NCBI GenBank assembly: GCA_963920595.1
Contig: OY986946.1
Location: forward strand, 3,224,001 to 3,288,000
Direction: 5' to 3'
DNA length: 64,000 nucleotides
From: Eimeria praecox
Lineage: Eukaryota
Position numbers and translations under genes: made by a program. Shown here piece after piece: positions 1 to 4,606 of the stretch (positions within the stretch are counted from its first letter, which is position 1; the number at the start of each line of letters is the position of its first letter). The notes under the pieces were generated by a model. The model was not told the origin of the DNA, ran no database searches, and saw nothing but the letters and a program-made list of their open reading frames with translations.

Positions 1-3000
1 GAGATCGCCCGCCACTCCGAGGTTTTCTGTCTCCTCTATCGGCTACATGAAACCCCCAGATTTTTTGGCTAAGACGAATACAGTCGGCACTAATTTCACG
101 TTGCACAATCCATGCTGAACGTTCTGAGATTCCAAGTCTGTGCGTGAGTACCGTCCTGTTTTCTCGTGCAATGCAGCCAAGGGATCCATATACTAGTGCC
201 TGTACTGTTACCCGATATCCTCGCGCTTCGTAATGCTTTTTGAGGCTTTGATATTTCTCTTCTTTTTGTAGACGGGCTGCTCCGAGGGAATTCTTCTTGT
301 AGTCCTCAAAGACGACCGCCACATCTACTATTGCCAAGTCTTTGCGCTTGTCATCTCGAAGAATAATATCAGGCCTTAACAGGGTTTCCATGTCCTCAGG
401 GCAGGCGTCGATTTGGAGCTTCTTGCCCCTATTCTTCGCGCTGCTCTTGATAGCTGTTGCAATCCTCTCCAACGCCTTGTTATGTCGGTCTTTGATCTTG
501 CTATCCATATGATGAGGGCAGTGGTTTAGGACATGCGCTAGGGTTTCCGGGTCCTCTGTACAATGGCGACATCGCGATACCTTTGAGACCTTAATCTTCT
601 TCAGGTATGCTCGTGTGGGGAGTTGTGCAGATCGTGCTCTTAAGGCGAAGATCACCTCGTCCGGCTTCAGACGAGTGGGACCTCTCAAGAAAGCATTACT
701 ATCTGCTGTCTGATAGGCCACTGACTTCCCTTGATCTACCTTTTCCTTCCACACGTCCCGTTGGCACTCCGCCATATGCTGTTTGATACTTTTAATGATA
801 TGCTTCTGATCCAGTTCGGAGCCATCTGTTCGCTGAACAACATAGCTCTCGTTGCTTCCAGTCTCGATGCGCGTCTTGCTCATCGATAAGCTTCCTGGAA
901 GCTCTGTCCATAAGCTTCGAACGTCCACCCTTTTGCCTCTCCTCTTCAGGCAGCCCAAGTCGCGCCCGTTGAGATAGGCAAGAATCGCTTCCCGGTCGCT
1001 CTTGTCACTCTCACGTGTATAGATGAAAGCCTTTTTGATGACTTCCAATAGCTGGCCTTCTGCAACCGCTCGAATCACGCTGTCTGAACTGTTGAGCATT
1101 TGTACAGCATGACCTATCTGCGTTGCAGTTGCGATCGTGATGAGAGAAGTACACCCAAGACCACCATGTGAGGTGGGCTGATGAAACATCTCAACGACGG
1201 TGCTCTTTGAAAGCTTGAAGGTAGCCTTTAGAGCAGAGCGTATATGACGATCGAAGGCAATCAGCTGCTGTCTATAAGGGTAACAATGCCTGAGATGATA
1301 GTCAAGACGAGACATCACAAAAGTGCGAATCGCATCTAGTTTCTGCCAGGGAAGGAGTGCTGACCTCAGGAGCTTGGTAATGTCCTTCTTCGCCTTGCTC
1401 ATGACTCGAAGGATTTGATTTTGATGCACTGACGATTCCAGCGCATCCTTGACGCCCAGGTACTTGTACGCCTCCCCTAGCTTGACCACCGGCAAGACCT
1501 CGTTGTGGAGCTTCAGCTGCACCGGATCGGGTTGTTGTCGCTTTTCTCCTCGCTTCCATCCCAAAGTAGCACATTTGGACGGGTTGGCCTCTAATCCTGT
1601 CCACTGGAGGAAGTCCACCACCACTTGATGAAGTGTAGAAATTCCTGCTCGAGTACTAGCAACCGTCTTGAGGTCGTCTGCATACGCCATGTGAGAGACC
1701 TTCACAGGCGGTCTCCCGTCTGTCGTACGCAGTTCGAGGCCTGCATCACAAGCTGCTAATCTCTGCAGGAGAGGCTCAATGGCTAGGTTGAAGAGGATCG
1801 GGCTGAGAGGACACCCTTGCTTAACTCCTCGTCGGTTCTCAATTCGACCTGTGCAGCCCTCCTTTGTCACTACGCAGAAGCTCGCTCCTTGATAGAGATC
1901 CATGATGATCTCACGAACGTGCTTCGGTAGCCGTTGAGCCTTCAAGACAACGTGTATGAGCTCGTGGGGAACGGATCCAAATGCATTTTTCAAGTCGTAG
2001 TACGTCATGTACAGCGGTTTCGAGCCTCTGCGCGTGGAGTTGAGGATGCTTTGGGCAAGAAACAGGTGCTCATGGCACCCATTCACTGGCATGAATCCCT
2101 TCTGCGACTTGGAGGCAACCCCGGACTGTGATGCCCAGTCCGTAATCCTGCTGGCCCACAGTGCTGCATAAAGTTTGTAGATACAGTCCTGTAGATTGAT
2201 GGGTCGCCAACTCTTCACATCGTTAGGATCGCCCTGCTTGGGAATCAAAACGGTCACGCTTTCCTTCCACTTCTCTGGAATACGTCGATGCCGAGAGCAC
2301 GCGTTGTATATCGCGGTCATGGCTGGAACAAGCACCTCTTCAAACCTCTTGTACACAAAAAACCCTATCCCATCTGGCCCTGCTGCAGACTTAAGGTTGC
2401 TCTTTAGCAGCTGAGCACGCACATCCTCTTCTGTGAAGTATAGATCGATCGCACACGCTCCACTAGGAGCTGAAGCCAAAGGGTCTAAGAACTCATGAGC
2501 AACATCAGAAGTGGAGTCGATTATTTGCTCAGAGTGCTGATCTCTAAAGTGTGCCTCCAGCTCACTGAGTTGGATGGGACAATCTTGGCTTCTAGGTTGA
2601 TCTTCGTCAGCTAGTAGTTGCTCCACACACTTCTTTCTGTCTTTCATGTAGAGTGCTTGGAGATTTTGTGCTGACTCTTCTTTGAGGATCATGATGAGGC
2701 GACGACGCGCAGTTCGTAGATTTCTTTCAAGGGCACGCTTCTTCAGTTTATCATCAAGCGATGCTCCAGATTGTTTCCCCTGCTGGGCTCTCTCCTCTGC
2801 TCGGAGTGCTTGCAACGCCTTGTCGACGTTTTCCTGCGCTTGAGCCTGCCTTGGGGACACGCGTGTCTTTCGGATTCCTGAGTCCTCGGTGTTCGTTGAG
2901 GGCTTGTTCTTCTTGCCACGTTGATTTGCTTCCTTGGGGTTCTTATCTGCAAACCAAATCGCATCATAAAGCTGAGTAGTGAAGCCTTCTACTGCGGCTT

Positions 3001-4568: not shown

Positions 4569-4606
<38 letters not shown>

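What the first reader, a model, noticed from the sequence alone, without database searches (positions are those of the whole stretch)
1..4580. Intact rDNA-targeting RLE non-LTR retrotransposon in an apicomplexan, at the R2 site but in reverse orientation
Seen: an uninterrupted >=1455-codon minus-strand ORF with ZnF, RT (YADD), CCHC and PD-(D/E)xK endonuclease motifs, whose 5' UTR abuts 28S at TTAAGGTAGCC (4569). Known: this is the target of animal R2 elements, which insert in the sense orientation, carry ZnF+Myb and are co-transcribed with rRNA. Apicomplexa are regarded as very poor in transposons, and the Eimeria elements I know of are LTR (chromovirus-like). Inference: motifs PWQKLDA, DVRSLW and KVDQGK and the lack of an evident Myb domain look NeSL/Utopia/R5-like rather than R2-like. 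That points to an independent lineage that converged on the R2 site and would prime on the opposite strand. It is potentially active and a candidate new site-specific insertion enzyme.
Basis: partly seen in the sequence, partly recalled or inferred. Interest (0 to 1): 0.95.

Follow-up and report, generated by a model that had tools for sequence, protein, structure and literature searches.

The report
Backwards rDNA retrotransposon in Eimeria parasites
A chicken gut parasite carries an intact jumping gene that sits backwards in a ribosomal RNA gene, right beside the spot used by animal R2 elements; it is most like a different group (Utopia), likely aims at this gene on its own and is likely still active, although only one end of the insertion could be seen.

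Summary
A 1455-codon minus-strand ORF (zinc finger, RT, CCHC, restriction-like endonuclease) and a 202-nt 5' UTR join the 3' part of a 28S gene exactly at 4569, antisense to the rRNA. ITS1 primer sites identify the host as Eimeria praecox. The protein belongs to an Eimeria-wide family (six named species; intact ORFs in unnamed assemblies; mostly silent variation). It is nearest to oomycete Utopia-type elements (about 37% identity, against 22-24% to R2), and no Myb domain was found. New here: a second, decayed copy at 49.2-50.1 kb abuts a decayed 28S in the same orientation, within about 80 nt of the same base.

Limits: only the 5' junction is visible. The priming nick is set by the unseen 3' junction, so 'at the R2 site' is unproven. 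Many decayed family fragments lie on long contigs and may be outside rDNA. Antisense 28S elements of the NeSL clade are published for planaria (LIN9, LIN24, LIN26), and 17 Eimeria hits labelled 'LINE R2' were listed in 2022 without a target. Verdict: a real, likely active new variant of a known kind. I found no description of an rDNA-targeting element in an apicomplexan.

The parts
2..4366 (-). Single ORF, at least 1455 aa, zinc finger - RT - CCHC - restriction-like endonuclease; runs off the window's left edge
3476..3553 (-). Single N-terminal zinc finger (C-x2-C-x12-H-x8-C) within a poorly conserved, probably disordered N-terminus
   Evidence: single-sequence model uninformative
1559..2245 (-). 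Reverse transcriptase core (Pfam RVT_1, aa 708-936; YADD at 1673-1684)
518..571 (-). CCHC zinc knuckle of the linker
251..376 (-). PD..D..K motif of the restriction-like endonuclease
4367..4568 (-). 202-nt 5' UTR, strongly folded (three hairpins, z -4.6); no Rfam family
4569..5670 (+). 3' part of a 28S rRNA gene, joined to the element's 5' end; near-identical to the intact units
13237..19543 (+). Intact 18S-5.8S-28S unit with empty site at 18440; ITS1 carries the E. praecox primer sites (15060-15274)
27072..33378 (+). Intact rDNA unit with empty site at 32275
40921..47227 (+). Intact rDNA unit with empty site at 46124
49235..50144 (-). Decayed fragment of the same element family (about aa 775-1075, 67% DNA identity, stops in all three frames)
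50145..50203 (.). 59 nt of uncertain origin between the decayed element and the decayed 28S
50204..51194 (+). Decayed 3' part of 28S (about 78% identity), clearly recognisable from the same position as the intact junction

Best explanation
This is an intact Utopia-related (NeSL-clade) non-LTR retrotransposon of Eimeria praecox whose 5' end is joined, antisense, to a 28S rRNA gene 6 bases upstream of the R2 nick position; it likely targets this stretch of 28S and likely still moves by target-primed reverse transcription with the opposite polarity to R2. Shown: domain anatomy, orientation, exact 5' junction, host, family range, a second decayed copy beside decayed 28S. Inferred from R2-type chemistry: the protein binds its own RNA and the 28S DNA around helices 69-71; the endonuclease nicks the sense (rRNA-like) strand; the freed 3' end of upstream 28S primes cDNA from the element's 3' end; a second nick on the antisense strand and joining give the junction seen at 4568/4569, and early joining gives 5'-truncated copies such as the decayed one. 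The first nick would lie at or some tens of bases upstream of the junction; its place is not shown. Because it is antisense, the element cannot be cut out of the pre-rRNA as R2 is; it would need its own promoter in the 5' UTR or antisense transcription from the rDNA (untested).
For: All catalytic motifs intact. The model of aa 530-1455 has pLDDT 91.7 and matches R2 structures over its length (TM 0.74-0.75, E 1e-45). Sharp junction to a 28S that is 1049 of 1050 identical to intact units and continues into the array and on to host genes. A second, 67%-identical fragment that lacks the 5' half lies in the same orientation against a 78%-identical 28S remnant that is recognisable from the same base. 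Family in six named Eimeria species (22 named fragments) with full-length ORFs of 1380-1536 aa in unnamed assemblies. Natural differences are mostly silent: 6 of 6 in RT-RLE and 9 of 11 overall among near-identical copies; 17 of 23 in a relative from another organism. 15 of 15 listed members of the P0001 cluster are 1458 aa and differ by 1-9 residues. Five of those 15 lie on contigs of 4872-4874 nt, and one contig here runs 253 nt past base 1; both fit a discrete element of about 4.8-4.9 kb between repeated flanks (inference). Tree: Eimeria family 100/100, inside a 98/95 group with the RNase H-bearing oomycete elements, the architecture given for oomycete Utopia.
Against: The 3' junction and upstream 28S are not seen for either copy. 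The decayed copy's junction is uncertain over 59-77 nt: neither origin fits well (upstream 28S 16 of 300 shuffles as good, element 192 of 300). The two copies may descend from one old insertion. 9 of 22 named Eimeria fragments lie on 8 contigs of 22-225 kb, which suggests dispersed copies outside the array; their flanks could not be read. Utopia families vary from strict to weak specificity. No read was laid across the junction. No expression evidence. The tree holds no R2, R5, LIN or NeSL reference, and the node that joins the Eimeria group directly to the oomycete group is unsupported (82/45).
Confidence: 0.68

Rival explanations
1. A loosely targeted Utopia-like family that inserts at many places; intact copies survive in rDNA but 28S is only one preferred or chance site.
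For: 9 of 22 named fragments lie on contigs over 20 kb. E. praecox alone has 5 named fragments of different ages. Reptile and ant Utopia and LIN24/LIN26 also insert outside their main target.
Against: Both copies in this 64-kb window abut 28S at nearly the same place and in the same orientation, and no other copy lies in the remaining 13 kb of non-rDNA sequence. A decayed 28S remnant can itself sit on a long contig, as here at the array edge.
Confidence: 0.2
2. A refinement of the best reading, sharing part of its probability: the priming nick is not near the R2 site but about 80 nt upstream, at the site known for planarian LIN24/LIN26, and insertion deletes the bases between; the match to the R2 site is then only the second-strand join.
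For: The LIN24_SM and LIN26_SM 3' junctions lie 83 nt upstream of this 5' junction on the same strand (counted by eye). The best 28S fit for the decayed copy's 59 uncertain bases reaches 77 nt upstream (weak). Deletion on insertion is proposed for oomycete Utopia.
Against: The 28S fit has a negative log-odds score and 16 of 300 shuffles do as well. The protein's nearest named kin are oomycete elements, not planarian ones, though no LIN reference was in the tree.
Confidence: 0.15
3. Assembly chimera, contaminant, or an array-edge rearrangement that placed an unrelated retroelement next to a broken 28S.
For: The element sits at the window's edge and no upstream 28S is visible; no read spanning the junction was examined.
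Against: Near-identical and decayed copies are in annotated E. praecox gene sets and relatives in five other Eimeria species. Independent runs from 2013 and 2023 hold the element at 99% identity or more. The decayed copy repeats the same arrangement at 22-33% divergence, which an assembler cannot invent.
Confidence: 0.05

Closest known systems
Oomycete Utopia elements (NeSL clade; Kojima and Jurka 2015, PMC4640811)
   Same: Single ORF ZF-RT-ZF-RLE; nearest named proteins (36-38% identity over RT-RLE, about 560 bits); same 98/95 tree group.
   Different: Utopia targets U2 snRNA genes in the sense orientation; here the 5' flank is antisense 28S. No RNase H here. One N-terminal zinc finger.
LIN9_SM, LIN24_SM, LIN26_SM of Schmidtea (R5/LIN lineage, NeSL clade; PMC4640811 S6 Fig)
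   Same: RLE elements inserted in 28S in the antisense orientation.
   Different: Other positions: LIN9 about 540 nt downstream, LIN24/26 3' junctions 83 nt upstream of this 5' junction. Planarian host. Kinship to this family not tested.
R2 (R2Bm 8gh6, R2Tg 9dou/9nl3, turtle R2 9nl2)
   Same: Same overall fold (TM 0.74-0.75) and the same 28S neighbourhood.
   Different: Opposite orientation; 20-24% identity and 106-226 bits; no Myb; cannot be co-transcribed in sense with rRNA; R2 is reported only from animals.
R5 (planarian) and R9 (rotifer) 28S elements
   Same: RLE elements at other 28S sites; reverse orientation is recalled, not read (titles only; R9 paper not held).
   Different: Different sites and hosts; R9 is given as an R2 offshoot.
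Seventeen Eimeria non-LTR hits classed 'LINE R2' by MGEScan (Rodriguez and Makalowski 2022, PMC9141347)
   Same: Probably fragments of this family (inference; same genus, RT-based call).
   Different: No target, orientation, phylogeny or intact copy described in the passages read; their Table S6 is not in the archive held.

Membership tests
RLE-type non-LTR retrotransposon | Single ORF with RT followed by CCHC and PD-(D/E)xK endonuclease | tested here: met
R2 | Insertion in 28S in the same orientation as the rRNA, 3' end at the R2 nick | tested here: not met
   ORF is antisense; the 5' end, not the 3' end, joins downstream 28S
R2 | N-terminal Myb domain | tested here: not met
   No Pfam Myb hit in the query or 5 of 5 full-length relatives; controls P0047 and P0164 score. 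The N-terminal model was too poor to add anything (pLDDT 47)
R2 | RT groups with R2 lineages | tested here: inconclusive
   No R2 reference in the trees; by similarity R2 (at most 226 bits) ranks below all 150 listed representatives (at least 264 bits)
R2 | 5' HDV-like ribozyme and co-transcription with pre-rRNA | tested here: not met
   No ribozyme family at E up to 10 over the 5' end; orientation excludes sense co-transcription
Utopia | RT groups with Utopia within the NeSL clade | tested here: met
   98/95 group with RNase H-bearing oomycete elements; those are taken as Utopia from their architecture, not from Repbase names
Utopia | One to three N-terminal zinc fingers, RT, zinc finger, RLE | tested here: met
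Utopia | Insertion in U2 snRNA genes | tested here: not met
   5' flank is 28S; no U2 in the window; likeness of the site to the U2 target is not significant. 3' flank unseen
Utopia (oomycete branch) | RNase H upstream of RT | tested here: not met
R5/LIN lineage | Antisense insertion in 28S | tested here: met
   (orientation shared, 5' junction at another position)
R5/LIN lineage | RT groups with R5 and LIN families | not testable with these tools
   No R5 or LIN protein was identified among the stored hits; Repbase and Dfam are not held
Strictly site-specific element | Both junctions in the target and most copies at one base | not testable with these tools
   No genome held; no loci in the three contig collections

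The most novel reading that the evidence does not exclude
An active, genus-wide Utopia-derived lineage in Eimeria abandoned U2 snRNA and independently settled on the R2 target, reading it backwards with one zinc finger and no Myb and priming from the opposite strand. The double compensatory change in 28S helix 69 next to the junction reflects host-element coevolution at an otherwise near-invariant rRNA helix. It would be the first active site-specific retrotransposon of an apicomplexan and a natural opposite-polarity counterpart of R2.
Probability: 0.25. Interest if true: 0.82.

Novelty: new variant of a known kind. Interest (0 to 1): 0.62.

Why it matters
Eimeria retrotransposons are described as degenerate LTR fragments unlikely to be functional (PMC7564333), and R2 is reported only from animals (PMC5035012). 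An intact, apparently selected non-LTR family in the rDNA of several Eimeria species would change that picture and suggests such elements were missed because rDNA collapses in draft assemblies. It would add a clear case of target switching in the Utopia/NeSL clade, outside animals, to the same 28S neighbourhood that R2 and LIN24/26 use. It gives a testable comparison of how a Myb-less protein reads that DNA from the other side. As an insertion enzyme it is only a candidate: its native 28S differs from the eukaryote consensus at four nearby bases.

Tried and rejected
No whole genome was held. Related loci: none in metagenome, viral or prokaryote contigs with the protein or the alignment; an upstream-28S pattern found 0 matches in two collections. 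So neither the 3' junction nor any relative's flank was read. Reads were laid on the element only; letters past base 1 are not printed, and depth dips near the 5' end are no finding. Idea that the 28S site mimics the U2 target: rejected as unsupported; 187 of 10,384 rDNA positions score better over 36 nt, and 17 of 10,436 better with 10 tied over the upstream 21 nt, a window chosen after looking. Ribozyme in the 5' UTR: no Rfam family; HDV and hammerhead layouts did not fit by eye. My first reading that the decayed copy has exactly the same junction was weakened. The element's missing 3' third was not found left of the decayed fragment. Single-sequence fold of the N-terminus failed; the Atlas gave only scores under 0.8. 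P0164, P0088 and P0151 were tried as R2 stand-ins for the tree and are no closer to R2 than the query. No named Cyclospora, Toxoplasma, E. tenella or E. acervulina protein appeared among the listed hits; most hits are unnamed, so this is not absence. Repeats inside the element are chance-level.

Full report
Observation. The minus strand carries a stop-free frame from ATG 4366 to the window edge, 1455 codons; 200 shuffles gave at most 248. It has one N-terminal zinc finger (aa 272-297), an RT (Pfam RVT_1, E 4.7e-32; YADD 895-898), a CCHC knuckle (1266-1283) and a PD..D..K endonuclease motif (1332-1368). Five full-length relatives end 0-10 residues beyond the last visible codon. A model of aa 530-1455 built on 48 sequences has pLDDT 91.7 and matches R2 structures along its length (TM 0.74-0.75, 20-24% identity). 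A 202-nt 5' UTR folds better than 200 of 200 shuffles (z -4.6) and matches no Rfam family.

Junction and setting. Identity to intact 28S begins exactly at 4569 and the preceding base differs. The interrupted gene's 3' part differs from an intact one at 1 of 1050 bases. It is followed by spacer and three intact units of 13.8 kb with empty sites at 18440, 32275 and 46124, then by host genes (prenyltransferase and MFS domains). The junction is 6 nt upstream of the R2 nick (position recalled). It is the element's 5' end, so it records the second-strand step; the priming nick is recorded at the 3' junction, which is outside the window. One low-depth contig runs 253 nt past base 1, but its letters are not shown.

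Host. Of seven published ITS1 primer pairs (PMC3852269, passages), only the E. praecox pair fits: 0 and 1 mismatches, product 215 nt as published; the other six pairs have 5-13 mismatches per primer. Annotated E. praecox proteins match the ORF at 83-93% by BLASTP.

A second copy. At the array's right edge, spacer-like DNA ends at 48927; a decayed fragment of the element (49235-50144, minus strand, 67% identity, stops in all frames, closest to this ORF among 10 queries) is followed by a decayed 28S 3' part (from about 50204 to 51194, 78% identity). The fragment lacks the element's 5' half, as 5'-truncated copies of such elements do (established knowledge). The 59 nt between fit neither origin well: upstream 28S 16 of 300 shuffles as good, element 192 of 300. 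So the old junction lies at the same base or up to about 77 nt upstream. Same neighbourhood and orientation by chance would be about 1% (77 of 3470 bases, one of two orientations; arithmetic), but the two copies could share one ancestral insertion, and neither shows upstream 28S.

Family. Six proteins are 64-98% identical over the searched region, five of them full-length ORFs of 1380-1536 aa from unnamed assemblies. Twenty-two named fragments come from E. praecox (5), E. necatrix (4), E. brunetti (5), E. maxima (4), E. mitis (3) and E. media (1) (20 of the 116 hits plus two), all annotated as hypothetical or RT-domain proteins. Of the 40 variant rows shown (65 more hidden), I classed the 34 in the ORF and left out 6 in the UTR: 9 of 11 silent among near-identical copies (6 of 6 in RT-RLE) and 17 of 23 silent for a relative in organism B, the latter biased by the 90% likeness filter. 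The 15 listed members (of 24) of the P0001 cluster are all 1458 aa and differ by 1-9 residues. Five lie on contigs of 4872-4874 nt and two family contigs are 19.2 kb, near one unit plus one element; this is suggestive only. Against strict targeting: 9 of the 22 named fragments lie on 8 contigs of 22-225 kb, and their flanks could not be read.

Kinship. The next-nearest proteins are 36-39% identical: unnamed ones, a gregarine (Lankesteria) transcript and oomycete elements with RNase H before the RT, the layout given for oomycete Utopia (PMC4640811). Scores are about 560 bits for these against 226, 196 and 106 for R2Tg, turtle R2 and R2Bm. In a 49-row tree (rows chosen by me from about 270 stored proteins; LG+G4, midpoint root) the Eimeria family is 100/100, its sister is three unnamed proteins (100/99), and these lie in a 29-row group with the oomycete and gregarine elements (98/95); the direct join to the oomycete branch is weak (82/45). 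Two faster trees (75 and 227 rows) agree on the larger group. No R2, R5, LIN or NeSL reference was in any tree. Pfam finds no Myb in the query or five relatives but finds it in two controls.

Mechanism. Shown: anatomy, orientation, 5' junction. Inferred from R2-type target-primed reverse transcription: first nick on the sense strand, priming from upstream 28S, second nick on the antisense strand, joining at 4568/4569; an own or antisense promoter instead of co-transcription. I give this reading 0.68, loose targeting 0.2 and artefact 0.05; a nick at the LIN24/26 site (0.15) is a variant of the first. All three intact units carry a double compensatory change in helix 69 (18423/18424 with 18436/18437 in the first) against the Rfam consensus and the planarian 28S. 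It lies where the inferred primer strand would be read; whether it is linked to the element is untested. Likeness of the site to the U2 target was not significant.

What is known. PMC4640811 (main text parts 1-3 of 5; S6 Fig parts 1-2 of 3; S1 Fig part 1 of 8) shows planarian LIN9, LIN24 and LIN26 antisense in 28S, LIN24/26 83 nt upstream of this junction and LIN9 about 540 nt downstream (counted by eye). PMC9141347 (part 1 of 5, passages, supplement part 1 of 5) reports 17 Eimeria hits classed 'LINE R2' and three unnamed Repbase entries from Eimeria; its Table S6 is not in the archive held and could bear on novelty. PMC5035012 (passages) found no R2 outside animals. PMC7564333 (passages) calls Eimeria retrotransposons degenerate and LTR-like. 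PMC13188248 (passages) has no mention of Eimeria or apicomplexans; PMC13580325 (passages) notes that the Fell et al. 2025 inventory holds NeSL/Utopia elements, which I did not see. PMC10946416, PMC11828913 and PMC11387943 (term searches) gave nothing on this element. R5 and R9 were seen as titles only; their orientation is recalled. Ten searches (two of them for primers and the host genome) found no description of an rDNA-targeting non-LTR element in Eimeria or Apicomplexa; Repbase, Dfam and most subscription journals were not searchable. Three unchecked notes of this scan describe antisense RLE elements near the R2 site in other genomes; they are leads and suggest the pattern recurs.

Verdict. 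Real, well supported as an intact Utopia-related element antisense in Eimeria 28S, probably active and probably targeted. A new variant of a known kind. Interest 0.62, rising to about 0.8 if the 3' junction falls at the R2 site and copies are site-specific across the genus.

Noticed in passing
window 18423-18424 and 18436-18437 (same in the units at 32275 and 46124): Helix 69 of the 28S carries two compensatory base-pair changes against the Rfam eukaryote consensus, just upstream of the junction position.
   Followed up: partly
window 4529-4537: Nine bases of the 5' UTR are an inverted copy of 28S about 20-30 bases past the junction; a read-through antisense RNA could pair them. Chance about 0.02 before multiple testing (by eye).
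   Followed up: no
window 48928-51194: A dead rDNA unit at the array's right edge that has lost 18S, 5.8S and the 5' part of 28S but keeps an element fragment; about 300 nt at 48928-49234 are unassigned.
   Followed up: partly
runs X4 and X23 laid on window 1-4560: Organism B holds its own diverged relative of the element at high depth, seen in short conserved RT stretches, besides a low-depth 99%-identical copy.
   Followed up: partly
P0147, P0279: Transcripts of the gregarine Lankesteria metandrocarpae encode a related RLE element (36-37% identity) in the same broad tree group but not in the Eimeria family.
   Followed up: partly
P0164, P0047: Myb-bearing elements from an amoeba (Filamoeba) and a sponge that are no closer to R2 than this one; Myb alone does not mark R2.
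   Followed up: partly
window 5700-7000 and after each 28S: Spacer sub-repeats rich in TGCA-containing motifs and a long TA run follow each 28S.
   Followed up: no
window 55573-57120 (+) and 58429-59871 (-): Host genes with prenyltransferase and MFS transporter domains beyond the array's end.
   Followed up: partly
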